From Rhodospirillales bacterium (GTDB taxonomy: Bacteria; Pseudomonadota; Alphaproteobacteria; Rhodospirillales; CAMCUA01): a stretch of DNA of 64,000 bases. Under the pieces are notes generated by a model, which saw only the letters and a program-made list of their open reading frames with translations, did no database searches and had not been told where the DNA came from. The stretch covers positions 14,116 through 78,115 of the forward strand of contig CBDFHV010000067.1 of assembly GCA_965247705.1 (NCBI GenBank), in the 5' to 3' direction. Both the position numbers and the translations under genes were made by a program. This document shows, piece after piece, positions 8,890 through 49,029 of the stretch (its first letter is position 1; every line of letters starts with the position of its first letter).

Positions 8890-9669
8890 ATGACCGCCGC
8901 CCCCCCCGTCGTGGTTCTGGTCCGCCCCCAGTTGGGGGAAAACATCGGTATGGTCGCGCGCGCCATGTGCAACTGCGGCCTCGACGACCTCAGGCTGGTC
9001 AATCCCCGGCGACCCTGGCCCAACCCCCGGGCCGAGGCCGCCGCCGCCGGCGCGGCGCCCCTGCTGGAGCGGGTGCGGCTGTTCGCAACCACCGCCGAGG
9101 CGGTGGCCGACCTGAACTACGTACTGGCCAGCACCGCCCGCCCCCGCCACACCACCCAAGTGGTCCTGACTCCCGAAAGCGGGGCGGCGGCGCTGCGGGA
9201 GCGCGCCGCCGGTGGCGGCGCCTGCGGCATCCTGTTCGGCAAGGAATCCCGCGGCCTGGAGAACGACGACCTGGCCCTGGCCGACGCCATCCTCAGCGTG
9301 CCCCTCGACCCCGCCCTCACCTCCCTCAACATCGCCCAGGCGGTGCTGCTGGTCAGCTACGCCTGGTTCCGGGCGGGCGATGATACGCCGGACGCCACGC
9401 TGAACGTTCCCCGCGCCACCCGCCCCGCCACCAAGGGCGAGCTGGTAGGCTTTTTCGAACACCTGGAGCGGGAGCTGGATGCCTGCGGATTTCACGCCGT
9501 GGCCGACAAACGGCCGATCATGGTGCGCAACCTGCGCAATCTCTTCCAACGGGCTTCCCTGACCGAGCAGGAGGTGCGCACGATGCGCGGTGTCGTCAGC
9601 GGCCTGGCGCGTCTGGGCCGCAGCCGGGGGACAGTGGGAAAGCGGGAGGATGAGGGTGGGGTGGAATAG
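8890..9669 (+). CDS. trmJ: TrmH/SpoU-family RNA 2'-O-methyltransferase (TrmJ-like)
   Basis: VVVLVRPQLGENIGMVARAMCNCGLDDLRLVNPR N-terminal SpoU block. ILFGKESRGLEN and SLNIAQAV motifs. Start chosen at ATG 8890. Confidence 0.7.
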   Translation: MTAAPPVVVLVRPQLGENIGMVARAMCNCGLDDLRLVNPRRPWPNPRAEAAAAGAAPLLERVRLFATTAEAVADLNYVLASTARPRHTTQVVLTPESGAAALRERAAGGGACGILFGKESRGLENDDLALADAILSVPLDPALTSLNIAQAVLLVSYAWFRAGDDTPDATLNVPRATRPATKGELVGFFEHLERELDACGFHAVADKRPIMVRNLRNLFQRASLTEQEVRTMRGVVSGLARLGRSRGTVGKREDEGGVE

Positions 9670-24143: not shown

Positions 24144-25130
24144 TTACTTGGTCGCCTGGATCTTGGCCAGCAAATCTTTCTGCACGTCGGTCTTGAGGAA
24201 CGCGTCGTAGACCTGCTTCGAGGCTTCGCGGAAAGGCTCCCCATCGGCCATGGTGACCTTCACCCCGGCCGCCAGAAGTTCGGCCAGTTTGGCATTGTTG
24301 CTTGCCGCGGCCAGCCCCCGCTGCAGGCGCGCCGCGTCCTTGCCGGCCTCGATCAAGGCCTTCTGTTGATCGGCGGGCAGGGACTGGTAGACCTTCTCCG
24401 ACATGATCAACGGATTGGAGAAGTTGAGCCAGCCGACGAGGGCCCAATAGGGCGCGACCTCGTAGAATTTTTGGCTGTGGTAGTTGGTATTGGCGGCGTC
24501 CGCGCCGTCCACCACGCCGGTCTGAAGGGCGCCGTAAACCTCCGTGTAGGCGATCGCCGTGGCATTGGCGCCGAAGGCGTTGAAGGCGGCCACGTGGACC
24601 GGGTTCTTGATCGCCCGGATCTTCATGCCCTTGAGGTCGGCCATGGAAAAGATCGGTTTCTTGGCCATGATGTGGCGCTCGCCGGTCGTAAAGACACCGA
24701 TCAGGCGGAGCCCCTTGGGCGCCATCAAGGCGCTGAACTGGTCGAACAACGGCCCTTCAAAAACCTTGTTGAAGTGGTCGTTGTCGCGAAACACGAAGGG
24801 CATGTTGATCACGTTCAGTTCCGGCACCCAGTTGGCGATGACGCCGGAAGCCGGCTGGGATACGCCGACGGTGCCGAAGAGAACGCCCTCGACCACGTTC
24901 TTGCCGGTACCCAACTGGCTGTTGGGGAAGATCTTGATCTCGATCGCGCCGTTGGTCAGTTCCTTCACCCTTTCGGCAAACCGAAGGGCGCCCAAGTGGT
25001 GGGGATTCTTTTCGTTGGTGCCGTGGGAAAACTTGAGCTCCAGGGCGTTGGCGGCCGTTCCCAGGGAGGCAAAAATCGTCGCCGCGGCGACCAGGGCGCC
25101 AAGCATTGGCTTGCGGGCCAGGGTGTGCAT
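24144..25130 (-). CDS. dctP: TRAP transporter substrate-binding protein
   Basis: Signal peptide after ATG 25130 (MHTLARKPMLGALVAAATIFASLGTAANA), then LKFSHGTNEKNPHH and a DctP-family body. Confidence 0.85.
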   Translation of the reverse strand: MHTLARKPMLGALVAAATIFASLGTAANALELKFSHGTNEKNPHHLGALRFAERVKELTNGAIEIKIFPNSQLGTGKNVVEGVLFGTVGVSQPASGVIANWVPELNVINMPFVFRDNDHFNKVFEGPLFDQFSALMAPKGLRLIGVFTTGERHIMAKKPIFSMADLKGMKIRAIKNPVHVAAFNAFGANATAIAYTEVYGALQTGVVDGADAANTNYHSQKFYEVAPYWALVGWLNFSNPLIMSEKVYQSLPADQQKALIEAGKDAARLQRGLAAASNNAKLAELLAAGVKVTMADGEPFREASKQVYDAFLKTDVQKDLLAKIQATK

Positions 25131-25239
25131 GATGTTCCTCCTGCAGGATTGCAATCGCGGGTCCTCGTCGGGATCCCTTGTCTCATCGCTTCCATGATAC
25201 AGCTTCGAAGCGGATTTCCATGAAGGAATCGGGTCCGCC

Positions 25240-26994
25240 ATGCGCCTGACCGGAAACGGCATCCGGCCCGCGGGTCGCGAGGTTCATGTGACATTCGACG
25301 GGCGAACCCTGCCCGCCCATGAGGGCGAGACGGTCGCCGCCTGTCTGGCCGGCAACGGCGTGTCGGCGTTCCGAGAGACCGAGGACGGCAGCACCCGTGG
25401 CATCTTTTGCGGCATGGGCGTCTGCTTCGAGTGCCTGGTCGACATCGACGGCCGACCCAATCAGCAGGCCTGCATGACCACTGTCACCGACGGCATGACC
25501 GTCACCACGCAGGCCCACCGCGCGGCCCCCGCCGCCGACGTTTCCTTTCCCGGCGTTGCAGAGAAAATCGCCGAGCCTGAGGTGCTGGTGATCGGCGGCG
25601 GCGCGGCGGGGCTGACGGCGGCCACGGCGGCGGCCCGCTGCGGGGCCGAGGTGGTGGTGGTGGACGAACGACCGGCCCTGGGCGGCCAGTTCTTCAAGCA
25701 GCTCTCCACGGCCCATGCCGTCGACTCCGAGGAGGCCTTGGACCCGCAATTCCGCCAGGGCCGAGACCTGATCCAGGCGGCGCTGGCGGCCGGCGTGGTA
25801 GTGATGGAACGGGCCCAGGCGTGGGGCGCCTTTCCGCCCCGGGAGGTCTGCGTCCTGGATCGGGACGGCCGCGCCATGGTGCTGCGGCCCCGGCAACTGG
25901 TGCTCGCCACCGGCGCCTACGAGCGGGGCCTGCCCATCCCCGGCTGGACCCTGCCCGGCTTCATGACCACCGGCGCAGCCCAGACCCTGGCCCGGGCCTA
26001 TCGGGTGGCGCCGGGCCGGCGGGTGCTGGTGGCGGGAAACGGGCCGTTGAATTTTCAGGTGGCCTCGGAGCTGTCCACCGCCGGGGTGGAGATCGCCGCC
26101 CTGGTGGAGGCGGCGCCGGCGCCGGGCCCCCGGCATGGGGGCGCCATTCTGTCGGGGTTACGGCATTCGCCCGACCTGATGTTGAACGGCCTCGGCTATC
26201 GCTGGCGCTTGCGCCGCCGAGGCGTTCCGCTTCTGCATGGCCACGTGCTGGTGGCGGCGAACGGCGACAGCCGGGTCGAAGAAGCGGTGGTCGCCCGCCT
26301 GTCCGCCGATGGGCAGGTGGACCGGTCGCGGGCGCAAACCTTCGCCGTCGACGCCATCTGCGCCGGCTACGGTTTCATGCCGTCGAACGATTTGTCCCGG
26401 GCCCTGGGCTGTCGGCACCGCTACGACCCGGGGAAGGGACATCTGGCGATCGAGGTCGACGGCGACGGCCTGACCACGGCGGAAGGGATTTTCGTCGTCG
26501 GCGATGCCGGCGGCATGGGCGGCGCCCGGATGGCGCAAGAGCAAGGGTTCCTTGCCGGCGTGGCGGCGGCCCGCGCCACGGGCAAGGCCGTGCCTTCGGC
26601 GATCGCTGACGAGGCCGCCCGGCGCCGCCGTAAGCTGGAAGGCCATCGGCGGTTTCAGTACGCCCTGTGGACCCTGTTCGCGGCGCCCCGCCTCGACGTC
26701 GAACTGGCCGATGACGACACCCTCGTCTGCCGCTGCGAGAACGTGCCCTTAGGCGCCCTGCGGGCGACCCTGGAATCGGGCGCCTGTTCCGCCGGGTCCC
26801 TCAAGCGCCAGACCCGCGCCGGCATGGGACGCTGCCAAGGCCGCTACTGCGGCCCCCTTATCGCCGCCATGGTCGCCGCCCGTGGCGGCGTCGCGGTCGA
26901 CGAGTTCTCCTACTTCGCCCCCCGCCCGCCGATCAAGCCGGTGCCCATCGGCGCCATCGCCCGCGAGCACGCGGACCTCAAATCCCAGGGGTGA
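25240..26994 (+). CDS. fused 2Fe-2S / FAD-NAD(P)-binding oxidoreductase (HcnA+HcnB / opine-oxidase-A-like)
   Basis: N-terminal CGMGVCFECLV 2Fe-2S domain. VLVIGGGAAGLTAA and VLVAGNGPLNF dinucleotide folds. C-terminal BFD-like CRCENV...GRCQGRYC. Confidence 0.75.
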   Translation: MRLTGNGIRPAGREVHVTFDGRTLPAHEGETVAACLAGNGVSAFRETEDGSTRGIFCGMGVCFECLVDIDGRPNQQACMTTVTDGMTVTTQAHRAAPAADVSFPGVAEKIAEPEVLVIGGGAAGLTAATAAARCGAEVVVVDERPALGGQFFKQLSTAHAVDSEEALDPQFRQGRDLIQAALAAGVVVMERAQAWGAFPPREVCVLDRDGRAMVLRPRQLVLATGAYERGLPIPGWTLPGFMTTGAAQTLARAYRVAPGRRVLVAGNGPLNFQVASELSTAGVEIAALVEAAPAPGPRHGGAILSGLRHSPDLMLNGLGYRWRLRRRGVPLLHGHVLVAANGDSRVEEAVVARLSADGQVDRSRAQTFAVDAICAGYGFMPSNDLSRALGCRHRYDPGKGHLAIEVDGDGLTTAEGIFVVGDAGGMGGARMAQEQGFLAGVAAARATGKAVPSAIADEAARRRRKLEGHRRFQYALWTLFAAPRLDVELADDDTLVCRCENVPLGALRATLESGACSAGSLKRQTRAGMGRCQGRYCGPLIAAMVAARGGVAVDEFSYFAPRPPIKPVPIGAIAREHADLKSQG

Positions 26995-27190: not shown

Positions 27191-27373
27191 ATGTCCGAGG
27201 CCCCAGGCGGTACCCCATCCACGGACGATGGGTCCGAGCGGATTCCAATGATGCAGCAGCTTTTGGACAACCATTTCCTGCTGTTGTTCCTGGGCGTTGC
27301 CATCCCGGCGGCGCTCTATCTCATGTGGGGGGTCATGGAAGTGGCTTCCATTCCCCTCCTGCCGGCGCAATAG
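27191..27373 (+). CDS. small single-TM protein (possible oxidase subunit IIa analogue)
   Basis: GGAGG lies 5 nt upstream of ATG 27191. One hydrophobic helix (FLLLFLGVAIPAALYLMWGV). Sits directly upstream of the CuA subunit gene. Confidence 0.4.
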   Translation: MSEAPGGTPSTDDGSERIPMMQQLLDNHFLLLFLGVAIPAALYLMWGVMEVASIPLLPAQ

Positions 27374-27454
27374 GGGGTCCCGGCGATGGCGATCACATCC
27401 CCCGAAAACCGAATCTGATGGAAAGAGCCGGTCGAGCGGTCGGAGGTCCTGTGG

Positions 27455-27931
27455 GTGACCCTGGCCCTGGTCTGGGCGCTGGTGATGTTCTTCATGATGC
27501 CCTACTGGCACATCGCCGGCGAACAGAACCTGTCCAACGAGGCCTACCGGGTGAAACCCGAGGCTTTCGGCGCCCGCGTGGAGGCGGCGGCGGCCAAATA
27601 CACGGTCCGCGAGGAAGGGGACACCGGTATCCCGGTGGTCCATCCGCCGGCCGGCGGCGATGCCTACATGCTGGCCCGGCTGTGGGAATGGTGGCCGGTT
27701 CTGGAGCTGGAAAAGGACCAGACCTACCGGCTGCACCTGTCGTCCATGGACTGGCAGCACGGGTTCTCGTTGCTGCCCGAGAGCATCAACCTTCAAGTCC
27801 ATCCCAACTACGAGATGGTGCTGACCATCAAACCGAACAGTACCGGCGTCTTCAGCGTGGTCTGCAACGAGTACTGCGGGATCGGTCACCACAACATGGT
27901 GGGCCGCATCCACGTGGTAGACAAGAAGTAG
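27455..27931 (+). CDS. B-family (ba3-type) heme-copper oxidase subunit II, CuA cupredoxin
   Basis: GGAGG lies 8 nt upstream of GTG 27455. One N-terminal TM helix. CuA ligands DWQHGF and CNEYCGIGHHNM. Confidence 0.8.
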   Translation: MTLALVWALVMFFMMPYWHIAGEQNLSNEAYRVKPEAFGARVEAAAAKYTVREEGDTGIPVVHPPAGGDAYMLARLWEWWPVLELEKDQTYRLHLSSMDWQHGFSLLPESINLQVHPNYEMVLTIKPNSTGVFSVVCNEYCGIGHHNMVGRIHVVDKK

Positions 27932-27940
27932 GGGGGCGTC

Positions 27941-28633
27941 ATGGCGACGACCGCGGAATTTCGCACCTGTCCCGAAACCGGCTTCAAGATTCATTTGCCG
28001 GCTGACAAGCTGATCAAATGGAACGCCGTGACGGGCATCGTATTTTTCCTCGTCGGTGGCCTGTTCGGCCTGGGGGTGGCGCTGACGCGCTGGCCCGCCG
28101 TTCACTTTCTGGGCCCGGAAGACTTTTACCTGGCGCTCACCGCCCATGGCCTGGACGTGCTGCTTGTCTGGGTCATCTTCTTCGAGATGGCGCTGCTCTA
28201 CTTCGCGTCCGCCGTCTTGCTGAACTGCCGGCTGGCGCAGCCGGTCATGGGCTGGGTCGGCTATTGGCTGATGCTGATTGGCGCGGTTATGGTCAACGTG
28301 GCGGTGCTGCAGGGCGATTCCAGCGTCATGTTCACCTCCTACGTGCCCATGCAGGCCTCGCCCCTCTTCTACCTGGGCATCATCCTGTTCGCGGTGGGGG
28401 CGCTGATCGGCTGCTTCGTGTTCTTCGGCACCCTGGTCATCGCGCGGCAGGAACGGACCTACGAGGGCTCGGTGCCCCTGGTCACCTTCGGCGCCACAGT
28501 GGCGGCGATCATCGCCGTCTTCACCATCGCCTCGGGCGCCATCATCCTGATCCCGACGCTGCTGTGGTCGGTGGGCTACGTCGGCACCATCGATTCGCTG
28601 ATGTACAAGGTGGTGTGGTGGGGCCTGAGCTAG
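27941..28633 (+). pseudogene. B-family heme-copper oxidase subunit I, N-terminal 230 codons only
   Basis: Multiple predicted TM helices, including the heme-ligand block LALTAHGLDVLL. The reading frame ends at ...VVWWGLS-TAG, where full-length homologs carry the WW-GHP CuB histidine. The IS left end starts at the next base. Confidence 0.75.
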
Positions 28634-28651
28634 CCCGAATTATTCACGGCG
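28634..28651. repeat. IS left inverted repeat CCCGAATTATTCACGGCG
   Basis: Matches the reverse complement of 30215-30232 at 15 of 18 positions. Confidence 0.8.
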
Positions 28652-28753
28652 CTGATTGAAAATGCTGGTGAGCGTAGATTAACCTGTTGAAATGCCGTAT
28701 GATTTTGGTGTCAAGACAAGATCACATGGCAACAGAACAACCCACGGCTCACC

Positions 28754-30094
28754 ATGAACGAGATTACCCCCTATCTCCCTGGTTTGTCACCCGTTGGAGG
28801 CAAGCCGCTTTGCGCCCGCTTCGACGGCGGACGGCTGTCGTCGGACGGCGGGGTGTTGTTGTTGGGCGAGATCGACAGGCGGCTCGGCATCGCCGACGTG
28901 CTCGCTTCCTGCGTCACCGACGTGCGCGACCCGGCGAGCACGACCCACGCTTACGTAGACATGATCCGGGCGCGCCTGTTCGCTATTGCCTGCGGGTATG
29001 AGGATTGCGACGACCTCGACGTTCTGCGTTTCGATCCGGCGTTCAAGCTGGCCTGTGGCCGTTTGTCCGAGAGCGGCGACGACCTGATGAGCCAACCGAC
29101 CCTGTCGCGCCTCGAGAACGCGCCGTCATGGCGCGCGCTCGGGCGCATGGGGCTGTCGATGATCGATCTGTTTTGCGCCAGCTTCAAGCGCGTTCCGGCG
29201 CGCATCGTTCTCGATATCGACGACACCGACGATGCCGTTCACGGCGGCCAGCAGCTGGCGCTGTTCAACGCCCATTACGACGACTATTGCTTCCAACCCA
29301 TCCATATCTTCGAGGCGGCCACCGGCAAGCCGGTGATGTCACTGCTGCGTCCCGGCAAGCGGCCCTCCGGCGACGAGGCGGCGCGGATCCTGAGACACGT
29401 CATCGGCCGCATCCGCCGCAACTGGCCACGGGTCGAGATCACCGTGCGGGGCGATGGCCACTACGCCACGCCGGAGGCCATGGAATTCCTCGAACGTCAG
29501 GGCTGCGGCTACATCTTCGGGCTTTCCGGCAACGCCCGGCTGAACAGGATCGGCCAGCCGTGGTGCGAGGACGCCGCCGTGCGCCGGGCGGGGCAGGGAA
29601 AGGATAAGGTGCGCCGCTTCTTCCACACCGGCTACCAGGCCAAAAGCTGGTCACGGCAACGCTCGGTCATCGCCCGCGTGGAAGCTACCGCCAAGGGCTG
29701 TGACGTCCGCTTCGTCGTCACCAACCTGAGCGGCCGCGCCAAGGCGCTCTACGAGAAGGTCTACTGCGCCCGCGGGCGGATGGAAAACATGATCAAGGAC
29801 CACAAGCTCTACACCAAGTCCGACCGCACGTCGTGCCACCGTTGGGAGGCCAACCAGTTCCGCCTCTTCCTGCATACCGGCGCCTACTGGCTGCTGCATC
29901 AGCTTCGCCAAGCGGCGCCTCGGAAATCGCTGTGGCGAACGGCCACCTTCGAAACCCTGCGCCGGGCGTTTCTCAAAATCGCCGTCCGCGTCGAGGAGCT
30001 CAAGTCGCGCCTCAGGATCGCCCTGCCTTCGGCCTATCCCTATCAGCCGGCCATGATCGCCATCGCCGGGCGCATCACCGCCCAAGGGCCCTGA
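28754..30094 (+). CDS. IS1380-family DDE transposase
   Basis: 446 aa with SQPTLSRLEN, VLDIDDTDD, NAHYDDYCFQPIH and RMENMIKDHK blocks characteristic of IS1380-type transposases. Confidence 0.85.
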   Translation: MNEITPYLPGLSPVGGKPLCARFDGGRLSSDGGVLLLGEIDRRLGIADVLASCVTDVRDPASTTHAYVDMIRARLFAIACGYEDCDDLDVLRFDPAFKLACGRLSESGDDLMSQPTLSRLENAPSWRALGRMGLSMIDLFCASFKRVPARIVLDIDDTDDAVHGGQQLALFNAHYDDYCFQPIHIFEAATGKPVMSLLRPGKRPSGDEAARILRHVIGRIRRNWPRVEITVRGDGHYATPEAMEFLERQGCGYIFGLSGNARLNRIGQPWCEDAAVRRAGQGKDKVRRFFHTGYQAKSWSRQRSVIARVEATAKGCDVRFVVTNLSGRAKALYEKVYCARGRMENMIKDHKLYTKSDRTSCHRWEANQFRLFLHTGAYWLLHQLRQAAPRKSLWRTATFETLRRAFLKIAVRVEELKSRLRIALPSAYPYQPAMIAIAGRITAQGP

Positions 30095-30214
30095 ACCAAG
30101 CGGCAGGTGCCGCCGGACGAGCCCCGAACAACAACCTCCAACCTCTCCGACAATCCGTCTCAAAAATCGCCGTCAACCCGGTCGCTACCGCTCGTCCCGC
30201 TGAAATCCGATGGC

Positions 30215-30232
30215 CGTCATGAATAATTGGGG
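30215..30232. repeat. IS right inverted repeat (CGTCATGAATAATTGGGG)
   Basis: Its reverse complement CCCCAATTATTCATGACG pairs with the left IR. Confidence 0.8.
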
Positions 30233-30279
30233 CTAGTGGTCCAAATCCCGGCCCTGGGCCGGAGACGGAAGATGTTGAA

Positions 30280-30312
30280 GGGGGCGGGCCAAAAACCCGC
30301 CCCCGGGTTTTC
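30280..30312 (+). terminator. intrinsic-terminator-like hairpin
   Basis: GGGGGCGGG-ccaaaaa-CCCGCCCCC forms a perfect 9-bp stem, followed by GGGTTTTCGG. Confidence 0.5.
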
Positions 30313-30361
30313 GGGGATACGGCAGATGGTTGGCCATTTGGATCAGTTGCGGGAACGATCG

Positions 30362-31171
30362 ATGGCGACCCTCGCCGTGCTGCTCCTGAGCTTGACCTTT
30401 TCCTCCCCAACCCATGCCGCCCGCGGCCATGACCCGGTGGATCGGGCCGAATCCCTGGCCGTCAGCCAAGCGGCCATCGGCCGGTCAGTGCGCGATCTGA
30501 CATTGCAGGACGCCCGTGGACGGACCGTGAGGCTGTCGGACTTCCGCGGCCGTCCCCTGGTGGTGAACATGGTCTACACCAGTTGTTCCGACGCTTGTCC
30601 GGTGGTCACCCAAAGCGTGGCCGATGCCGCCGCCGTGGCCTGGGACGCCCTGGGCGGGGAGTCCTTCGCTGTCATCACCGTCGGCTTCGATACATCGTTC
30701 GATACGGCGGAGCGGGTGGCCGGTTTCGCCCGCCGCCAGGGCGCCACGGGACCGACCTGGCGGTTCCTGAGCGGAGAACTGCCGACGGTGGCGGCCCTGT
30801 CGGACGATCTGGGTTTCGTCTTCTACCGCTCCGCCAAGAGATTCGATCACCTGTTCCAGACCACGATCCTGGACGCCGAAGGCCGGGTCTATCGGCAGGT
30901 CTATGGGGCGACGTTCGATACGCCCCTGTTCGTCGAGCCATTGAAAGACCTGGTCCTGGGCACCACGTCCCCGTTCGCCAGCCTCGACGACCTGGTCAAG
31001 AAAATGCGCCTGTTCTGCACCATTTACGACCCGGCCGCGGACCGCTACCGTTTCGAGACGTCCCTGTTCGTCCAGTTGGCCGTGGGCGCGTTGGTGGTGC
31101 TGCTGTTGGGCACATTCGTCATTCGCAATTGGATCCGCATTCTCCGCCGTGACCAGAGCCCCGCCCGGTGA
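30362..31171 (+). CDS. SCO1/SenC-family copper chaperone with C-terminal TM extension
   Basis: Signal peptide MATLAVLLLSLTFSSPTHA. Thioredoxin-fold CSDAC (CxxxC) motif and a distal His (FDHLFQTTILD). Start chosen at ATG 30362. Confidence 0.75.
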   Translation: MATLAVLLLSLTFSSPTHAARGHDPVDRAESLAVSQAAIGRSVRDLTLQDARGRTVRLSDFRGRPLVVNMVYTSCSDACPVVTQSVADAAAVAWDALGGESFAVITVGFDTSFDTAERVAGFARRQGATGPTWRFLSGELPTVAALSDDLGFVFYRSAKRFDHLFQTTILDAEGRVYRQVYGATFDTPLFVEPLKDLVLGTTSPFASLDDLVKKMRLFCTIYDPAADRYRFETSLFVQLAVGALVVLLLGTFVIRNWIRILRRDQSPAR

Positions 31172-32727
31172 CCATCCGCCGGGTTCTGCAGGATGTGGTG
31201 CTGCGCGCCAAGGCCGGTTTCGACCGCCCCTTTGGCGCGGCCTGGAATCCCTTGCGGCAGCTGGGCACGCTGGCCTTCTTCTACTACTGGATCTGCGCCG
31301 CCAGTGGGATCTACCTCTATATCCTGTTCGATACCTCGGTGACGGGGGTCTACGATTCGATCGAGTATCTGACGGTGGAGCAGTGGTACCTGGGCGGCGT
31401 CATGCGCAGCCTGCACCGCTATTCCTCCGACGCCATGGTCGTGCTGGCCGTCCTGCACCTGACCCGCGAGTTTCTGTTCGATCGCTACCGGGGGGTCCGC
31501 TGGTTTGCCTGGTTCACCGGCGTCTCGGTCCTGTGGTTTCTCTACATGTCGGGGATCAGCGGCTATTGGCTGGTGTGGGACCAGTTGGCCCAGTACGTGG
31601 CCACCGGCTCCATGGAGTGGATGGACTGGCTGGGCATCTTCGGCGAGCCGGTGGCCAACAACTTCCTCACCCAGGGCAGCCTGGGCGACCGCTTTTTCAG
31701 CCTGTTGATCTTCATCCACATCTTCGTGCCCCTGTTCCTGCTGTTCATCATGTGGGTCCACGTGATGCGGGTCGCCCAACCGCGCATCAATCCGCCCCGG
31801 GGACTGGCCGCGGGCTCGACGGTGGCGCTCCTCGCCTTGGCGCTGGCGAAGCCGGCGGTGAGCCACCCGCCGGCCGATCTGAGCACGGTGCCGTCGAGCC
31901 TCAACCTGGACTGGTTCTACATGCTGCTCTATCCGCTGTTCGATGCCTGGGGGCCGGGGCCGTTGTGGCTGCTGGCGGTCGGCGGCTCGGTCGCCATATG
32001 CATCCTGCCGTGGCTGCCGCCCCTGCGGCGGGAGGCGCCGGCGGAAGTGTTCCTCGAGAAATGCAACGGCTGCACCCGCTGTTTCAACGACTGTCCCTAC
32101 AGCGCCATCACCATGAACCCGCGCAGCGACGGCCGCCCCTTCGAGGAAGAGGCGGTGGTCGACCCGGACCTGTGCGTGAACTGCGGCATCTGCGTCGGGT
32201 CGTGCCCGGTGTCCACGCCGTTCCGCCACTCCGATGAACTGGTTACCGGCATCGACCTTCCCAACTACCCCCTCGGCCGGGTGCGCGACGTAACCCAGGC
32301 GGCCATGGACCGCCTCACCCAAGCCCCCGGCGGTCGGGTCCTGGTGTTCGGGTGCGAACATGGGCCCACGGTGGAAGCCCTGGAGCGTGATGGGATCGCC
32401 ACCGTTCCGCTCCCGTGCGCCGGCATGCTGCCGCCGTCCTTCGTCGACTGGGCCATCAGCCGCGGCGGCGTCGACGGGGTGGTGGTGGCCGGATGCCGGG
32501 AGCGCGACTGCTACCACCGCCTGGGGGTGCGCTGGACCCAGGACAGGATGGCGGGGCTGCGGGACCCCTACCTGCGCGCCCGGGTGCCCCGCGAGCAGGT
32601 GATGGCCCTGTGGGCGGCGCGAACCGACACCGAAGCCCTGATCGGCCAGGTTGAGGATTTCCGCCGCGACCTGGCTTCGGCGGCCCTCGAGGACCCGCGG
32701 CCCGCTATGGCGAGCGCGATCCCATGA
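31168..32727 (+). CDS. fusion protein: di-heme cytochrome b (bc-type N-domain) + 2x[4Fe-4S] ferredoxin + MvhD/FlpD-like domain
   Basis: GTGA overlap with the SCO1 gene. His pairs RSLHRYSSDAMVVLAVLHLTREF and FIHIFVPLFLLFIMWVHV. CNGCTRCFNDCP and CVNCGICVGSCP cluster motifs. C-terminal VLVFGCEHG...LPCAGML...GVVVAGCRERDCYH. Confidence 0.7.
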   Translation: MTIRRVLQDVVLRAKAGFDRPFGAAWNPLRQLGTLAFFYYWICAASGIYLYILFDTSVTGVYDSIEYLTVEQWYLGGVMRSLHRYSSDAMVVLAVLHLTREFLFDRYRGVRWFAWFTGVSVLWFLYMSGISGYWLVWDQLAQYVATGSMEWMDWLGIFGEPVANNFLTQGSLGDRFFSLLIFIHIFVPLFLLFIMWVHVMRVAQPRINPPRGLAAGSTVALLALALAKPAVSHPPADLSTVPSSLNLDWFYMLLYPLFDAWGPGPLWLLAVGGSVAICILPWLPPLRREAPAEVFLEKCNGCTRCFNDCPYSAITMNPRSDGRPFEEEAVVDPDLCVNCGICVGSCPVSTPFRHSDELVTGIDLPNYPLGRVRDVTQAAMDRLTQAPGGRVLVFGCEHGPTVEALERDGIATVPLPCAGMLPPSFVDWAISRGGVDGVVVAGCRERDCYHRLGVRWTQDRMAGLRDPYLRARVPREQVMALWAARTDTEALIGQVEDFRRDLASAALEDPRPAMASAIP

Positions 32728-33434
32728 CCGAGGACGGCTTTCCGATATTCTACGCGGTCCCGCTTCTGGTGTTCCTGCCGATTTTCTTTCTGGTTCTTCG
32801 AGCATTCGGCTTGTTTCGCATCATCGGCGAGCTGGTGGCGAGAAAACCGGTGGCGCAAGCAGCGTCGGAACCGGCCCCGACCACGCGGCGCCGCGCGCCG
32901 CCGCCGCGCGGCGTCCGGCCCGACGAACCGGGTCTCCAGCCCCTTCGCCTGGCCGGCCAAGCGCTGGCCTACGTGCCATTTCTGGTCGTTGTCGGGGCGT
33001 TTGCCGCCTGGCCCACGTACGAATACGTCCCCGCCGATCACGCGCGGCTCAAGGTGAGCATCGGCTACACCGGCCAGCGCAAGGAAGAATGCCGCCAGCG
33101 ATCCCGCGAGGAGTTGGCCAAGCTGGCCCCCAACATGCGCGCGCCCCAGTCCTGCTCCCGGGAGCGATGGCCTTTGCAGCTGCAGCTGCGGCTGGACGGC
33201 GAACCGTTGATCGACGTCGAACGGCCGCCGGCCGGTCTCAGTGCCGACATGCCCTCCAGCTTCTATCGGGTGATCGACGTCCCCGCGGGTGCGCACCATA
33301 TCGCCGTGCGGCTGAAGGACAGGGGCGATGCCGAGGTGTTCCCCTACAGCGACGAACGCACGGTGACCCTGGTGCCCGGCCAGTCCCTGGTCATCGGTTT
33401 CGATCAGCGGGCCGGCGGTTTCCAATACCGATAG
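32724..33434 (+). CDS. hypothetical 2-TM membrane protein with beta-rich C-terminal domain
   Basis: ATGA overlap with the upstream gene. TM segments IFYAVPLLVFLPIFFLVL and LAYVPFLVVVGAFAAW. No family recognised. Confidence 0.5.
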   Translation: MTEDGFPIFYAVPLLVFLPIFFLVLRAFGLFRIIGELVARKPVAQAASEPAPTTRRRAPPPRGVRPDEPGLQPLRLAGQALAYVPFLVVVGAFAAWPTYEYVPADHARLKVSIGYTGQRKEECRQRSREELAKLAPNMRAPQSCSRERWPLQLQLRLDGEPLIDVERPPAGLSADMPSSFYRVIDVPAGAHHIAVRLKDRGDAEVFPYSDERTVTLVPGQSLVIGFDQRAGGFQYR

Positions 33435-33458
33435 AGTGCCGCGAGCGTTCGGGCGCGA

Positions 33459-33857
33459 TCAATGGCCCGTCAGCGCGTGCAGGCGCCGGTCCAGGGTCCG
33501 GAAGTGATTGCCGAACCAACGGCCGGTCCGATCCGCGATCGCCGCGGGAACGTCCGTATCGGCGCCGGCGGCGACCTCGTCCATGATATCGCGGATGTCG
33601 TCCAGCAGCCGGTCGTGATCGGCCTTGTGCTCGGCATAACCCTCGTAACCCACCGATCGCATGACCTTTTCCTCGAGGGCGAAATGGGCCTCGATGAGGG
33701 CATGGATCTCGGCCAGGCTGGCCTGGATCTGCTGGGTCGGCCGTTCGCCCTTGGCCAGCACAGCCAAGTCGTTGATGGCGGAGATCGGGTTCTGGTGCTC
33801 GTGGTCGATGGACTCGACCCCGGTCTCGAACTCCTTGCGCCACGGAATCAGGGTCAT
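33459..33857 (-). CDS. bacteriohemerythrin
   Basis: WRKEFETGVESIDHEHQ start and the His/Asp ligand pattern (HFALEE, HKADHDRL, FGNHF). 132 aa. Confidence 0.8.
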   Translation of the reverse strand: MTLIPWRKEFETGVESIDHEHQNPISAINDLAVLAKGERPTQQIQASLAEIHALIEAHFALEEKVMRSVGYEGYAEHKADHDRLLDDIRDIMDEVAAGADTDVPAAIADRTGRWFGNHFRTLDRRLHALTGH

Positions 33858-33994: not shown

Positions 33995-34723
33995 ATGAGC
34001 CCCGAGGATCTGAACATCGTCCGCGGCCTGCCGCTTCTGGCAGGGCTGCCCGAAGACCGGCTGGGGCGACTCCTGACAGGCGCCGTACCCCGTGTCCACC
34101 CCAAGGGCCAGGTGCTGTTCTTGCAGGACGATCCGGCGGACGGCTTTTACGTGGTCCTCAGCGGCTGGGTAAAGCTGTTCGTCGAGCGCTCGGACGGCGA
34201 GGAGGCGGTGCTCGGCGTCTTCACCCGGGGCGAGAGCTTTGCCGAGGCGGTGATGTTCATCGGCGGCCGCTACCCGGCCAGCGCCCAGGTGGTGGAAGAT
34301 GCCCGGCTGCTGCGCTTCAGCTATCGTCCGTTCAGCGATTGGATCCATGCCGAGCCGGCGGCGGCCCTGAATATGCTGGCGTCCATGTCCCGTCATTTGC
34401 ATCACCTGGTGCGCGAGGTGACCCAGCTCAAGACCCGCACCGCCAGCCAGCGCGTCGCCGACTTCCTGGTCCGGCTGTTTCCGACCCGCGAGGGATCGGC
34501 GGTGGTCGCCCTGCCCTACGACAAGTCCCTGATCGCGGCCCGCCTGGGCATGAAGCCGGAAAGCCTGTCCCGGGTTCTCGGCGGGCTGCGCAAGCTGGGG
34601 GTCAAGTCGGAACAAAACCGGGTGGTGATTCCGGACGTGGCGTTGCTGCACGACTACGCCGACAGCGGCCGCCCGGTCGACGCCTTCCGCGACCAGATGG
34701 TTCGCGCCCGCGGCGCCGATTGA
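33995..34723 (+). CDS. Crp/Fnr-family transcription factor, Dnr/NnrR subtype
   Basis: cNMP-like beta-barrel and a C-terminal HTH with the E--SR recognition motif (KPESLSRVL). No N-terminal Cys cluster, so not FNR proper. Confidence 0.8.
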   Translation: MSPEDLNIVRGLPLLAGLPEDRLGRLLTGAVPRVHPKGQVLFLQDDPADGFYVVLSGWVKLFVERSDGEEAVLGVFTRGESFAEAVMFIGGRYPASAQVVEDARLLRFSYRPFSDWIHAEPAAALNMLASMSRHLHHLVREVTQLKTRTASQRVADFLVRLFPTREGSAVVALPYDKSLIAARLGMKPESLSRVLGGLRKLGVKSEQNRVVIPDVALLHDYADSGRPVDAFRDQMVRARGAD

Positions 34724-37927: not shown

Positions 37928-39803
<1,876 letters not shown>

Positions 39804-46870: not shown

Positions 46871-47615
46871 CCGCTTTCCGTGGCGTCACGCCGGCCTGAT
46901 TCTGGTCGCCCACGGCTCCGAAGCCGACGGCGGCGCCAACGCCGGCCTGGCCCGTCATGTGGCGGCGCTGCGGGAGCGGCACCTGTTCGCCGGCGTGGTC
47001 GGCGCGGCGCTCTACGGCAAGCCGGACCCGGTCGATGCGATGGGCCATATTCGCGCGCCCGTCGCCTTTGTGGCGCCCCTGTTAATGTGCGACGGCATGT
47101 TCGTTCGCGAGGTCCTTCCGGCCCGCTTCGAGCGCAACGGCATTGGGGAGACCGGGCCCCGGTTGTGGGCCTGCCCGCCACTGGGCGAGAACCCGGCCTT
47201 GAGCGGCCTGATCGCGCGCCGGGCCGCCCGAATGGCGATTGGGGACGGCATCGTGCCCGGTGACTGCGCCCTGCTGTTGATCGCTCACGGCTCTTCGCGG
47301 GACGGTGCTTCGTGCCGTGCCGCTCGGGCGCAAGCCCGGCGGCTGCGAAGCCTGTGCATGTTCGCGTCGGTCGAGACCGCATTCCTGGATCAGGTCCCTC
47401 ACCTGGATGACGTGTTGGCCCGCCTCCGTGGTCCGCTTGTGGTCGTCGGGCTGTTCGCCGATGCCGGCGCCCACGCCGCGGTGGACGTGCCGTCCCTTCT
47501 GGCCCGCCACGGCCGTGACGGGGCGCCGCACCTGCCGGCCATCGGCACGGACGATGAGATTCCCGACCTGATTGTCCACCAGGTGACGCGGCTCGAAGGA
47601 TCTTTCAGGCCGTAG
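46827..47615 (+). CDS. cbiX: two-domain CbiX-type (sirohydro)chlorin chelatase
   Basis: Duplicated chelatase halves, each with an AHGS motif (LILVAHGSEADG and LLLIAHGSSRDG). Overlaps nirN by 44 nt. Confidence 0.65.
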   Translation: MSITRSPGPREPATDRFPWRHAGLILVAHGSEADGGANAGLARHVAALRERHLFAGVVGAALYGKPDPVDAMGHIRAPVAFVAPLLMCDGMFVREVLPARFERNGIGETGPRLWACPPLGENPALSGLIARRAARMAIGDGIVPGDCALLLIAHGSSRDGASCRAARAQARRLRSLCMFASVETAFLDQVPHLDDVLARLRGPLVVVGLFADAGAHAAVDVPSLLARHGRDGAPHLPAIGTDDEIPDLIVHQVTRLEGSFRP

Positions 47616-48084
47616 ACGTAGCGGCCGGTCGGCAACCAACACCGGAACGGCTTCGCCACATGGCCTGGGCGGCGATGCACGCCGGCGACAGGTCCTCCTC
47701 CCCCGCTTTGCCGTCCCCAACCCAGGCCACCCGACAGGGCTTGAGCGGATTGCGCTGGGCCTCGCCGCCGCCGCCCTTGAAGATCAGCGCCCGGGGCTGG
47801 ACCAGGGTTCGGGCAACCGCCTGCTGCACCGCGCGGTAGGGGGGTGGAAGACGCCGAGAAGCTGACAGGGCGCCGCCAGGGGATTGAGCGATCGCGCCAG
47901 GCTGTTGACCACCGTGCGGACTCCCAGAACGGGCCGCAACCCGAACAGCGTCGCCAGGTGCGGGCACAGGCTCTCCAGCCCCAGATAGGCGATGTTGTGC
48001 CGCTCAAGTTCTCTGGTGGCGCCGCCTCCTGCCGAGGGAACGGGAAAAGCGATCGTATGGGGTCGGGAATTGCGATGGGGGGCA
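47605..48084 (-). pseudogene. TrpD2/YbiB-like (glycosyltransferase family 3) gene remnant, frameshifted and truncated at both ends
   Basis: One frame reads ...LGVRTVVNSLARSLNPLAAPCQLLGVFHPP. The continuation YRAVQQAVARTLVQPRALIFKGGGGE is in another frame, and the shift maps to the G6 run at 47839-47844. Only about 160 codons fit between the flanking genes. Confidence 0.5.
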
Positions 48085-49029
48085 CTAGGCGGTCTTGGCC
48101 AGGTCGCCTTCCAGGACGCCGGCTTCGACCAGAATCGCCCGCAGTTGTGCGGTTTCCTCGCCCGTCAACGGCTTGACGTGCTCGCGCGGCTCGCCGCCGG
48201 GGACGCCGATCATTTTCATCGCCGCCTTGATGCCGGCAGGCGGGATGCCCACCGACCACATGAGGGCGTCCGACACCATGCCGTAGCGGCAGTGCAGGTC
48301 CATGCGCGCCTTGGGCGACATCTCGTGGACGCCGAAGAACAGCCGGCGGCAGTCGCCGCCGAACAGCTCCGGCCCGGTGCCGACGAACCCGCCGCCGCCC
48401 ATCAGCAGGGACGGCACCAGGGTATCCTTGTGACCGTAGAGCACCGGCACCCGGTCCCCCACCTCGACGATCATCCGCTTGATGTGGTCGAAGTCGGTGG
48501 GCACATCCTTGACCACCTCCACCGGCGCCACGTCGCAGATGGCGCGCATGTGCTCCGGCGTGATGCTGTAGTGGGACAGTTGGGACAGGTTGTAGACCAT
48601 CATCGGCAGGGGCACGGCCCTGGCCACGGTGGCGAACCGGTCGCGCACCACCTCCGGCGAGGAGTCGTAGATCTGTGGCTGGCCGAGGGCGATGCCGTAG
48701 GCCCCGTTCTCGGCCGCAATCTCGGCCCGGCGGATGCATTCTCGGGTCGGCGTGCGGGTAACGTGGACGTAGAAGGGGATCTTGCCGTCGATGGTCTTGG
48801 CGGCGGTGGCCGTGACCTGGCCCAGTTCATGATCGTCGATGGCGTAGCCTTCGCCGTTGCAGCCGGCGATCAGCATGGTGTCCACCTGGACCACGTCCAG
48901 GTGATAGCGCAGCACGCGGGCGAAGTCGTCGAGCAGAAGCTCGCCCGTCGGGCTGAACGGCGTGACCGGGGCGGGGCTGTGGATCTGATTCTTGAACGGC
49001 GACTGGGAGTAGGTCTTTTCCATGGGCAT
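48085..49029 (-). CDS. DapA/DHDPS-family lyase
   Basis: APVTPFS, IAGCNGEG and MMVYN family blocks. 314 aa. Confidence 0.75.
   Translation of the reverse strand: MPMEKTYSQSPFKNQIHSPAPVTPFSPTGELLLDDFARVLRYHLDVVQVDTMLIAGCNGEGYAIDDHELGQVTATAAKTIDGKIPFYVHVTRTPTRECIRRAEIAAENGAYGIALGQPQIYDSSPEVVRDRFATVARAVPLPMMVYNLSQLSHYSITPEHMRAICDVAPVEVVKDVPTDFDHIKRMIVEVGDRVPVLYGHKDTLVPSLLMGGGGFVGTGPELFGGDCRRLFFGVHEMSPKARMDLHCRYGMVSDALMWSVGIPPAGIKAAMKMIGVPGGEPREHVKPLTGEETAQLRAILVEAGVLEGDLAKTA

What the first reader, a model, noticed from the sequence alone, without database searches (positions are those of the whole stretch)
27191..30362. ba3-type heme-copper oxidase operon inside the denitrification island, subunit I cut at the CuB helix beside an IS1380 element
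What the sequence shows:
- There is a small TM protein, then a CuA subunit II with an intact ligand set (HGF ... CNEYCGIGHHNM).
- Subunit I stops after 230 codons at ...VVWWGLS-TAG.
- The next base is the left inverted repeat of a 1599-bp IS1380-family element. CTAG is present on both flanks.
- Only about 130 bp, including a terminator-like hairpin at 30280-30312, separate the IS from the SCO1/SenC gene.

Inference:
- In full-length B-family subunit I the WW-GHP segment carries the first CuB histidine, and roughly 330 more codons follow. The catalytic half of the enzyme is therefore absent here.
- Removing the IS and one CTAG copy still leaves the in-frame TAG. This is not a simple reversible insertion. 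More likely it is an IS-associated deletion, or an insertion into an allele that was already broken.
- The operon is physically linked to senC, to a Dnr-type regulator and to nirS. That resembles the coxB/coxA-like + senC arrangement reported for B-family-derived NO reductases (the sNOR/eNOR type).
- The lost enzyme may therefore have been an NO reductase or a microaerobic O2 reductase rather than a housekeeping oxidase.
Basis: partly seen in the sequence, partly recalled or inferred. Interest (0 to 1): 0.68.

Follow-up and report, generated by a model that had tools for sequence, protein, structure and literature searches.

The report
Broken NO-reductase operon with IS insertion
This is the wreck of an eNOR-type nitric oxide reductase operon next to the nirS genes, disabled by three separate mutations of which the insertion sequence is the mildest, so it is ordinary strain-level gene decay, not a new kind of system.

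Summary
- a small membrane ORF;
- a CuA subunit II;
- a 230-codon subunit I ending WWGLS-TAG;
- a 1599-bp IS1380-family element flanked by CTAG;
- 125 bp with a hairpin, then senC.

Three syntenic contigs, 99.6-99.8% identical in DNA, carry the same locus with no IS and a 561-aa subunit I ending ...SSVWGLS-TAG.

The window allele equals that gene minus 993 bp lying between its only two GTGGGGC copies. Deleting that stretch reproduces the window ORF with 0 mismatches. The AGC-TAG before the IS is therefore the native last codon and stop.

The IS is a simple insertion into the CTAG that overlaps that stop, with a normal 4-bp duplication. Ten other copies of the same IS show CTAG or TTAG duplications.

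A third lesion was missed: TGG to TGA at codon 11 of the true 181-aa subunit II.

The intact enzyme has Gln where oxygen reductases have the cross-linked Tyr, in 79 of 79 relatives. That is the published eNOR signature, not ba3 and not sNOR.

Verdict: a decaying eNOR operon. Interest is low to moderate.

The parts
27191..27373 (+). Small single-TM ORF (60 aa), first gene of the operon. Intact here.
   Evidence: ORF and sequence. Called as a 60-aa gene in sister contigs L092-L094. Homologous ORF upstream of subunit II in 73 of 80 related loci. No Pfam or NCBIfam hit.
27386..27931 (+). eNOR subunit II (CuA cupredoxin, 181 aa in intact alleles). A pseudogene here: premature stop at codon 11.
   Evidence: Window 27418 is A where L092, L093 and L094 have G, turning TGG (Trp) into TGA. 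The N-terminus MAI..P..R.WW.EP is conserved in all 40 relatives inspected. CuA motif CNEYCGIGHHNM. Weak COX2/CoxB profile hits.
27416..27418 (+). Nonsense codon TGA (Trp11 to stop) in subunit II.
27941..28633 (+). Remnant of eNOR subunit I: codons 1-228 fused in frame to the last two codons (Leu, Ser) and the native stop. Keeps only the low-spin heme ligand His69.
   Evidence: Pfam COX1 over profile positions 2-208 of 436. Identical to the L092 gene after removing 993 bp, with 0 mismatches over 693 bp. Residue positions.
28618..28624 (+). Deletion junction: the single retained copy of the 7-bp direct repeat GTGGGGC.
   Evidence: The intact gene has exactly two copies, at gene positions 678 and 1671 (L092 8061 and 9054), 993 bp apart. 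Junction sequences.
28630..28633 (.). Left copy of the 4-bp target duplication CTAG. It overlaps the native Ser561 codon and the TAG stop.
   Evidence: L092 reads ...CTG AGC TAG TGGTCC... with a single CTAG. AGC-TAG is the common natural ending in relatives.
28634..30232 (+). 1599-bp IS1380-family insertion sequence with imperfect terminal inverted repeats starting CCC.
   Evidence: Ten other copies at 99.8-99.9% nt identity over the full 1599 bp in sister metagenomes. Absent from L092-L094 at this site.
28754..30094 (+). IS1380-family DDE transposase, 446 aa.
   Evidence: Pfam DDE_Tnp_1_4 509 bits. NCBIfam NF033539 404 bits, cut-off 180. The exact protein is seen on 55 contigs.
30233..30236 (.). 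Right copy of the 4-bp target duplication CTAG.
30237..30361 (+). Native subunit I-senC intergenic region with a hairpin (stem 30280-30288 / 30296-30304, then GGGTTTTC).
   Evidence: Colinear with L092 from position 9065 onward, with no gaps. Fold -25.6 kcal/mol, z = -2.0. G+C-rich hairpins follow the stop codon in several alphaproteobacterial relatives (sequences).
30362..31171 (+). SCO1/SenC-type copper chaperone. ORF intact, but carries G160R at a position that is Gly in 72 of 72 relatives.
   Evidence: Pfam SCO1-SenC. Substitution and polarity.
31168..32727 (+). Fusion protein: cytochrome b6-like domain, 2x[4Fe-4S] ferredoxin and an MvhD/FlpD-like domain. Conserved operon partner.
   Evidence: Pfam. 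PDB matches to cytochrome b6 (residues 32-210), ferredoxin-type subunits (291-350) and MvhD (408-502). Colinear in 60 of 60 loci.
32724..33434 (+). orf236, a conserved membrane-anchored protein of unknown family. Last gene of the operon.
   Evidence: No Pfam, NCBIfam or PDB match. Colinear in 60 of 60 loci.
33459..33857 (-). Bacteriohemerythrin, conserved neighbour of the operon.
   Evidence: Pfam and NCBIfam. Adjacent in 55 of 60 loci.
33995..34723 (+). Crp/Fnr (Dnr-type) regulator between the eNOR module and the nosR-apbE / nirS cluster.
   Evidence: Pfam cNMP_binding and HTH_Crp_2. nirS at 38055-39803 and the nir accessory genes.

Best explanation
The locus is a dead copy of an eNOR-type nitric oxide reductase operon.

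Gene order in sister genomes of the same species:
- a 60-aa membrane subunit;
- a 181-aa CuA subunit II;
- a 561-aa catalytic subunit I, with His69 and His385/His387 as heme ligands, His231/His280/His281 as active-site metal ligands, and Gln235 in place of the cross-linked Tyr;
- a hairpin;
- SenC;
- a cytochrome b / Fe-S / MvhD fusion protein;
- orf236.
A hemerythrin, a Dnr-type regulator and the nirS cluster sit next door.

In this genome three independent lesions are shown by direct comparison:
1. TGG to TGA at codon 11 of subunit II.
2. A 993-bp in-frame deletion between the only two GTGGGGC copies in subunit I. It removes codons 229-559 and joins ...VVWWG to the native C-terminal ...LS-stop.
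3. Insertion of an active, multi-copy 1599-bp IS1380-family element into the CTAG formed by the last Ser codon and the TAG stop, with a 4-bp duplication.

The IS does not change the subunit I coding sequence. It only separates subunit I from senC and the downstream genes.

Inferred, not shown:
- The deletion arose by slippage or illegitimate recombination at the short repeats.
- The enzyme reduced NO to N2O, using NO made by the neighbouring NirS.
- After the first hit the module drifted, which would explain derived missense changes at near-invariant sites in subunit II, SenC, the fusion protein and the hemerythrin.

The order of the three lesions is unknown.
For: Intact sister alleles:
- L092, L093 and L094 are 99.6-99.8% identical to the window over 12-20 kb on both sides. 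They have no IS and a 561-aa COX1 gene.
- The junction sequences show the window's ...GGC CTG AGC TAG is the native gene end, and the bases after the right-hand CTAG continue the native intergenic region.
- Removing 993 bp between the two GTGGGGC copies reproduces the window ORF exactly.
- WGLS-stop and AGC-TAG are natural endings in relatives.
- None of 79 relatives has CTAG or a stop at the helix-VI site. All read G-H there.

The IS:
- Ten other copies of the same IS have 4-bp duplications, CTAG nine times and TTAG once.
- More distant IS1380 relatives show CTAA/CTAA.
- CTAG occurs 10 times in 64 kb against 195 expected from base composition.

Subunit II: the nonsense codon and the conserved N-terminus are.

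eNOR assignment:
- The best solved match is Thermus ba3, E = 2e-47, with His233 aligned to His and Tyr237 aligned to Gln.
- The GHSSQQ motif is present in 79 of 79 full-length loci and 91 of 94 database fragments, including a Magnetospirillum sequence.
- Gln at this site is the published eNOR marker (PMC8756737 Table A4).
- Purified eNOR reduces NO and not O2 (PMC11214002).

Context:
- nirS, nirE, nirF, nirN and nosR are adjacent.
- nirS lies within 10 kb in 23 of 80 related loci.
- No C-terminal half of subunit I is found anywhere in the window.
Against: - The deletion junction and the IS target lie only 5 bp apart. For two unrelated events that is unlikely (roughly 1% within a 1.7-kb gene), so an unrecognised mechanistic link cannot be excluded.
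- No intermediate allele was found, so the history is unresolved.
- The eNOR assignment rests on a diagnostic residue and on context. It was not tested by a tree with reference eNOR sequences, and no activity data exist for this proteobacterial clade.
- Only 64 kb is visible. Another NOR, or even another eNOR copy, may exist elsewhere in the genome.
- The evidence for relaxed selection is thin: four derived changes at conserved sites. The sister lineage also carries derived changes at conserved sites, including cytbFeS 285, nosR 504 and nirS.
- The window sequence cannot be checked against reads.
Confidence: 0.88

Rival explanations
1. IS-mediated adjacent deletion: the transposase, acting from the IS end, removed the 3' two-thirds of subunit I.
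For: The IS sits 5 bp from the deletion junction. The element is active and multi-copy. Adjacent deletions are a known IS outcome (general knowledge).
Against: - Transposase-made deletions start exactly at the IS end. Here the native bases CTGAG and an intact CTAG duplication lie between the junction and the IS.
- The deletion endpoints are a 7-bp direct repeat with one copy retained, the signature of slippage or illegitimate recombination.
- Both IS flanks match the IS-free allele base for base.
Confidence: 0.05
2. Assembly or consensus artefact: the real genome carries an intact operon, or an IS-only allele, and the deletion and/or the stop codon come from mis-assembly or a mixed population.
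For: The broken allele is seen only on the window's own 83.9-kb contig, while the intact protein is on 3 other contigs. The IS is a 1.6-kb multi-copy repeat, which can confuse assemblers.
Against: - A 7-bp repeat cannot cause repeat collapse.
- The deletion is outside the IS, and both IS junctions are canonical.
- Three separate lesions, plus derived missense changes in the same module, fit real decay better than error.
- The rest of the 20 kb aligns cleanly with sister contigs.
Confidence: 0.05
3. The intact enzyme is a ba3-type (B-family) oxygen reductase for microaerobic respiration, not an NO reductase.
For: The nearest solved structure is Thermus ba3. It has a CuA subunit II and a small third subunit like ba3 subunit IIa. 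The three metal-ligand His and the Ser309 equivalent are retained. A heme O synthase gene sits in about 60% of related operons.
Against: - The cross-linking Tyr is replaced by Gln in all 79 full-length relatives.
- Families lacking this Tyr are held not to reduce O2, and purified eNOR did not (PMC11214002).
- The operon sits with dnr and nirS.
Confidence: 0.07
4. The 230-aa product is a naturally short or split subunit I that still functions.
For: The deletion is in frame and the ORF keeps its native start and stop.
Against: All complete orthologous genes in the related loci are 554-574 aa, apart from two that end early at 405 and 459 aa, probably through frameshifts. The remnant lacks every active-site ligand. 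No second half is found in the window. Subunit II is also broken.
Confidence: 0.01

Closest known systems
eNOR family of heme-copper nitric oxide reductases (Hemp & Gennis 2008; Murali et al. 2024, PMC11214002). Characterised from Rhodothermus marinus; the Magnetospirillum magnetotacticum 'cytochrome a1-like' hemoprotein is assigned to it.
   Same: - B-family-like subunit I with all heme and metal His ligands, and Gln in place of the cross-linked Tyr.
- CuA subunit II.
- The Ser309-type K-channel residue is kept.
- A heme O synthase gene lies in many related operons.
- It is linked to nirS and dnr.
- A Magnetospirillum homologue at 68% identity carries the same GHSSQQ motif.
   Different: - This copy is non-functional.
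- Placement in the eNOR clade was not tested with reference sequences.
- The tightly conserved senC / cytochrome b-Fe-S fusion / orf236 / hemerythrin partners are not described in the parts of the eNOR papers I read.
Thermus thermophilus ba3 cytochrome c oxidase (B-family; PDB 1EHK, 1XME).
   Same: It is the best solved match, E = 2e-47 over residues 20-519. It has the same three-gene logic: a small TM subunit, CuA subunit II and subunit I.
   Different: Tyr237 is Gln here. Tyr244 and Thr312 equivalents are Ile and His. The operon context is denitrification.
sNOR (norSY-senC-orf1 of ammonia oxidisers).
   Same: A CuA-type two-subunit HCO followed by senC (PMC4940428).
   Different: sNOR has Asn at the Tyr position and lacks the Ser309 equivalent. 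Here the residues are Gln and Ser. Whether sNOR orf1 is related to the fusion protein here was not established.
IS1380 family insertion sequences (for example ISAzs3 and ISEcp1).
   Same: A single DDE transposase ORF above the NCBIfam cut-off, inverted repeats starting CC, and a 4-bp target duplication.
   Different: The closest plasmid-borne relatives reach only 59% aa identity. This element has a strong YTAG target preference, which steers it to TAG stop codons in a genome where CTAG is about 20-fold under-represented.

Membership tests
eNOR (heme-copper NO reductase) | Gln at the position of the cross-linked active-site Tyr (ba3 Tyr237). | tested here: met
   The HMMER alignment to ba3 puts Q at Tyr237. 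GHSSQQ or GHASQQ is present in 79 of 79 full-length relatives and in the 99.7%-identical intact allele, as Gln235. The marker is defined in PMC8756737 Table A4. In the window itself this codon is deleted.
eNOR (heme-copper NO reductase) | Three His ligands of the active-site metal and the two heme axial His are retained. | tested here: met
   The intact allele has His69, His231, His280/281 and His385/387, aligned to ba3 His72, 233, 282/283 and 384/386. The window remnant keeps only His69.
eNOR (heme-copper NO reductase) | CuA-binding cupredoxin subunit II. | tested here: met
   H...C-x3-C-x3-H-x2-M is present. Partial CoxB/COX2 profile hits. The gene carries a premature stop in this genome.
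eNOR (heme-copper NO reductase) | B-family-like K-channel residues, including the Ser309 equivalent (absent in sNOR). | tested here: met
   Ser aligns with ba3 Ser309 and Thr with Thr315. The Thr312 equivalent is His. The criterion comes from PMC11214002.
eNOR (heme-copper NO reductase) | Falls inside the eNOR clade in a tree with reference sequences (R. marinus, haloarchaea). | not tested
   No reference eNOR sequences could be fetched. There is only indirect support, from a Magnetospirillum homologue with the same motif and the statement that the M. magnetotacticum enzyme is an eNOR.
eNOR (heme-copper NO reductase) | Reduces NO and not O2. | not testable with these tools
   This needs biochemistry. 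It has been shown only for the R. marinus enzyme.
sNOR | Asn at the Tyr position. | tested here: not met
   The residue is Gln.
gNOR | Asp replaces one active-site His, and subunit II lacks CuA ligands. | tested here: not met
   All three His are present and the CuA motif is present.
B-family (ba3) oxygen reductase | Cross-linked His-Tyr cofactor (Tyr four residues after the first CuB His). | tested here: not met
   H-S-S-Q-Q in place of H-P-I-V-Y.
IS1380 family | IS1380-type DDE transposase. | tested here: met
   NF033539 scores 404 bits against a cut-off of 180. PF13701 scores 509 bits.
IS1380 family | Terminal inverted repeats and a short (4-5 bp) target-site duplication. | tested here: met
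   Inverted repeats match at 15 of 18 bases. A 4-bp duplication is seen in 11 of 11 copies of this IS, including one non-palindromic TTAG pair. CTAA pairs occur in two related elements.

The most novel reading that the evidence does not exclude
Two things could be new here.

First, the conserved partners (SenC, the cytochrome b6-like / 2x[4Fe-4S] / MvhD-like fusion protein, orf236 and the hemerythrin) may form a dedicated, uncharacterised electron-supply and assembly system for proteobacterial eNOR. They are colinear with eNOR in 60 of 60 related loci.

Second, within one IS-rich species, strains may switch between NO-reducing and NO-releasing nirS denitrifiers by knocking this module out.

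This genome would then be a natural eNOR-null strain that keeps consensus residues at the polarised nirS sites, usable to test what eNOR and its partners contribute to N2O production.
Probability: 0.3. Interest if true: 0.5.

Novelty: new member of a known kind. Interest (0 to 1): 0.25.

Why it matters
- Annotation. eNOR genes are routinely labelled 'cytochrome c oxidase' or 'cbb3-type oxidase' (names). This locus would count as a NOR in a gene survey although it cannot work. Gene-presence inventories of N2O producers can therefore be wrong at strain level.
- Method. An IS lying beside a truncated gene is not necessarily the cause of the truncation. Here only a near-identical IS-free allele revealed an internal microhomology deletion, and showed that the 'premature' stop is the native one.
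- IS biology. The case documents an active IS1380-family element with YTAG specificity that lands on TAG stop codons.
- Physiology. A nirS organism without this NOR would either rely on another NOR elsewhere in the genome or release NO. Which of these applies is not known from the window.

Tried and rejected
1. Second IS copy in the window, to explain the break by inversion or recombination. The 446-aa ORF at 47399-48739 is a coincidence of length. The repeat search found no copy.

2. Missing half of subunit I, or a heme O synthase gene, elsewhere in the 64 kb. tblastn gave only noise, E > 0.07.

3. CTAG as the tip of the inverted repeat instead of a duplication. Rejected because of non-palindromic CTAA/CTAA and TTAG/TTAG pairs.

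4. AGCTAG as a mutated Gly-His codon pair, or as a 6-bp micro-deletion of the helix-VI sequence. Dropped once the native C-terminus VWGLS-TAG was seen.

5. The right flank as the remnant of a ctaB or subunit I 3' end. No similarity in any frame. It is the native intergenic region.

6. megablast of the IS against plasmids found nothing. The protein search reached only 59% identity or less.

7. The first homologue search returned only proteins of 402 aa or fewer. This looked like a family of short proteins, but it appears to be a hit-length limit of about 1.75 times the query. Full-length genes were recovered from DNA loci instead.

8. Exact look-ups of the 230-aa remnant and of the transposase found no contig. 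The source organism could not be named.

9. A literature search for CTAG targeting by IS1380 elements returned nothing useful.

Full report
**1. Observation**

The region reads as the first-stage reader described it.
- A 60-aa single-TM ORF lies at 27191-27373.
- A cupredoxin gene ending at 27931 carries a complete CuA motif, HGF...C-NEY-C-GIG-H-HN-M.
- A heme-copper oxidase subunit I ORF runs 27941-28633, 230 codons, ending YKVVWWGLS-TAG. Pfam COX1 scores 102 bits but covers only profile positions 2-208 of 436.
- From 28634 to 30232 lies a 1599-bp element with imperfect terminal inverted repeats. Its 446-aa transposase scores 404 bits on the NCBIfam IS1380 model, cut-off 180.
- CTAG flanks it on both sides.
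- 125 bp follow, containing a 9-bp G+C hairpin (-25.6 kcal/mol, z = -2.0). A SCO1/SenC gene then starts at 30362.

**2. What the family is**

A scan of one genome per species found more than 540 loci encoding relatives. The best 80 are 71-79% identical in protein.

In these loci subunit I is 554-574 aa wherever the gene is complete, apart from two that end early at 405 and 459 aa, probably through frameshifts. The helix-VI segment reads WW[AG][ML]GH[SA]SQQ in 79 of 79.

The nearest solved structure is Thermus ba3 oxidase, E = 2e-47. In that alignment:
- the first CuB His is conserved;
- the cross-linked Tyr237 is Gln;
- the other metal and heme His ligands and the Ser309 equivalent are present.

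Published tables give Tyr for oxygen reductases, Asn for sNOR and bNOR, Gln for eNOR, and a His-to-Asp change for gNOR (PMC8756737 Table A4). Murali et al. report three relevant points (PMC11214002):
- families without the Tyr do not reduce O2;
- purified R. marinus eNOR reduces NO only;
- the Magnetospirillum magnetotacticum 'cytochrome a1-like' protein is an eNOR.

A Magnetospirillum homologue of the window protein, 68% identical, has the same motif. The operon is therefore best filed as eNOR. It is related to ba3 but is not a ba3 oxidase, and it is not sNOR despite the senC linkage.

A tree with reference eNOR sequences could not be made, so membership rests on the diagnostic residues and on context.

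**3. Conserved neighbourhood**

The gene order is: small ORF, subunit II, subunit I, senC, a cytochrome b / Fe-S / FlpD fusion, then orf236.
- This order is colinear in 60 of 60 loci that extend far enough.
- A hemerythrin lies next door in 55 of 60.
- nirS lies within 10 kb in 23 of 80.
- About 60% of loci have a heme O synthase gene between subunit I and senC (TIGR01473, 250 bits against a cut-off of 210). This species does not.

In the window the module is followed by dnr, apbE, nosR, nirS, nirE, nirF, nirDLGH-type genes, nirN and a CbiX-like gene, up to about 47.6 kb. The flanks encode unrelated catabolic and transport genes. No norCB lies in the window.

**4. The decisive comparison**

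The fusion protein's 90% cluster contained members from long contigs. Their loci, L092, L093 and L094, come from three metagenome assemblies.
- They are syntenic with the window over 12-20 kb on both sides.
- They are 99.6-99.8% identical in DNA.
- The only break in colinearity is at the finding.
- They have no IS, and subunit I is 561 aa.

The intact gene reads:
- ...AAG GTG GTG TGG TGG GGC ATG GGG CAC TCG TCC CAG CAG... at helix VI;
- ...AGC GTG TGG GGC CTG AGC TAG, followed by TGGTCCAAATCC..., at its end.

The window reads ...AAG GTG GTG TGG TGG GGC CTG AGC TAG [IS] CTAG TGGTCCAAATCC...

Three conclusions follow.
- The AGC-TAG in front of the IS is the gene's own last codon and stop.
- The CTAG it forms is a single native site that was duplicated on insertion.
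- The truncation is a 993-bp in-frame deletion (codons 229-559) between the only two GTGGGGC copies in the gene.

Making that deletion in silico reproduces the window ORF with 0 mismatches over 693 bp. WGLS-stop and AGC-TAG are also natural endings in more distant relatives. This is why the remnant appears to 'end at WWGLS'.

**5. The IS**

Ten further copies of the same element, 99.8-99.9% identical over all 1599 bp, were recovered from a sister metagenome.
- Nine are flanked by CTAG/CTAG and one by TTAG/TTAG.
- More distant IS1380 elements show CTAA/CTAA.

The flanks are therefore true 4-bp duplications of a YTAG-type target and are not part of the inverted repeat.

CTAG occurs only 10 times in the 64-kb window against 195 expected from base composition. 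TAG stop codons preceded by C should therefore be among the few available targets; I did not tabulate where the other CTAG sites fall. The exact transposase protein is on 55 contigs, so the element is active and abundant.

The insertion here leaves subunit I's coding sequence unchanged. It separates subunit I from senC and the downstream genes. Whether it silences them or drives them was not testable. One outward promoter-like match lies at 30200-30227, no more than chance would give.

**6. A third lesion and drift**

Against all three sister contigs the window has G to A at 27418. This turns Trp11 (TGG) of the real 181-aa subunit II into TGA. The N-terminal MAI..P..R.WW.EP segment is conserved in all 40 relatives examined. 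The window's own annotation calls only the 158-aa downstream ORF.

The window also carries derived substitutions at near-invariant positions:
- subunit II N133S (Asn in 78 of 80 relatives);
- SenC G160R (Gly in 72 of 72);
- fusion protein E15K;
- hemerythrin L24P.

At the four polarised nirS differences the window keeps the consensus residue. This fits decay of the eNOR module after a first inactivating hit. The numbers are small, and the sister lineage has its own derived changes.

**7. Mechanism and open point**

Shown:
- three independent lesions;
- a canonical IS insertion;
- a deletion between short direct repeats.

Inferred:
- slippage or illegitimate recombination as the cause of the deletion;
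- loss of NO reductase activity.

Unexplained: the deletion junction lies only 5 bp from the IS target. This is unlikely by chance, yet it is not the geometry of a transposase-made adjacent deletion. No intermediate alleles were found, so the order of events is unknown.

**8. Verdict**

- Right: the catalytic half is lost, and the enzyme was an NO-reductase type linked to nirS.
- Wrong: the IS as agent of the deletion, and the reading of the stop codon.

This is a pseudogenised member of a known enzyme family, hit by a member of a known IS family. Interest is low to moderate.

The conserved but uncharacterised eNOR partner genes are the most promising lead seen along the way.

Noticed in passing
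window 30362-33857; L001-L080: The eNOR genes always travel with senC, a 519-aa fusion protein (cytochrome b6-like, 2x[4Fe-4S], MvhD/FlpD-like) and orf236, which matches no family. The order is colinear in 60 of 60 loci, with a hemerythrin adjacent in 55 of 60. The fusion family has more than 5346 members, annotated only as 'hydrogenase iron-sulfur subunit' or 'cytochrome b N-terminal domain-containing protein'.
   Followed up: partly
L001-L080, between subunit I and senC (for example L001 about 11.8-12.7 kb): About 60% of related operons carry a heme O synthase gene (TIGR01473, 250 bits) between subunit I and senC. This species and its nearest alphaproteobacterial relatives lack it there and have a G+C-rich hairpin instead.
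   Followed up: partly
window 24144-25262 (dctP); L092 4438-4454; L093 2297-4573: The sister contigs have their own lesions in the TRAP-transporter binding-protein gene, which is intact in the window. L092 has a 17-bp insertion and L093 an IS5-like insertion. The population seems rich in IS activity and pseudogenes.
   Followed up: no
window 30.3-42.2 kb versus L092/L093: There are 22 nonsynonymous against 6 synonymous differences across senC to nirF, close to the neutral ratio. At nirS codons 272, 352, 418 and 512, and at nosR 504, the window has the outgroup consensus and the sister contigs are derived.
   Followed up: partly
whole window: CTAG is about 20-fold under-represented: 10 sites against 195 expected at 67% G+C. 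Two of the 10 are the IS duplication. TTAG, CTAA and TTAA are similarly rare (8-11 each).
   Followed up: partly
window 30200-30227: A promoter-like hexamer pair (CTGAAA, 16-nt spacer, AATAAT) faces outward at the right end of the IS, towards senC. It is a single consensus match and no more than chance would give.
   Followed up: no
window 11.7-20.3 kb: Several paralogous FAD-dependent (DAO-type) oxidoreductase genes share 60-124-nt stretches at 71-83% identity, in direct and inverted orientation. They lie inside an amino-acid/opine-like catabolic cluster with DHDPS-family, aminotransferase and TRAP-transporter genes.
   Followed up: no
P0005, P0011, P0039, P0058; L010 and L058: Several homologues from very long contigs have C-terminal tails that look frameshifted. 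One MAG (MFD05684.bin.2.180) holds two eNOR loci, one of them with an altered subunit I C-terminus. These may be long-read errors or further examples of decay.
   Followed up: no
tool behaviour: The homologue search with the 230-aa query returned only proteins of 402 aa or fewer, about 1.75 times the query length. This hid all full-length orthologues and the 99%-identical intact allele.
   Followed up: partly
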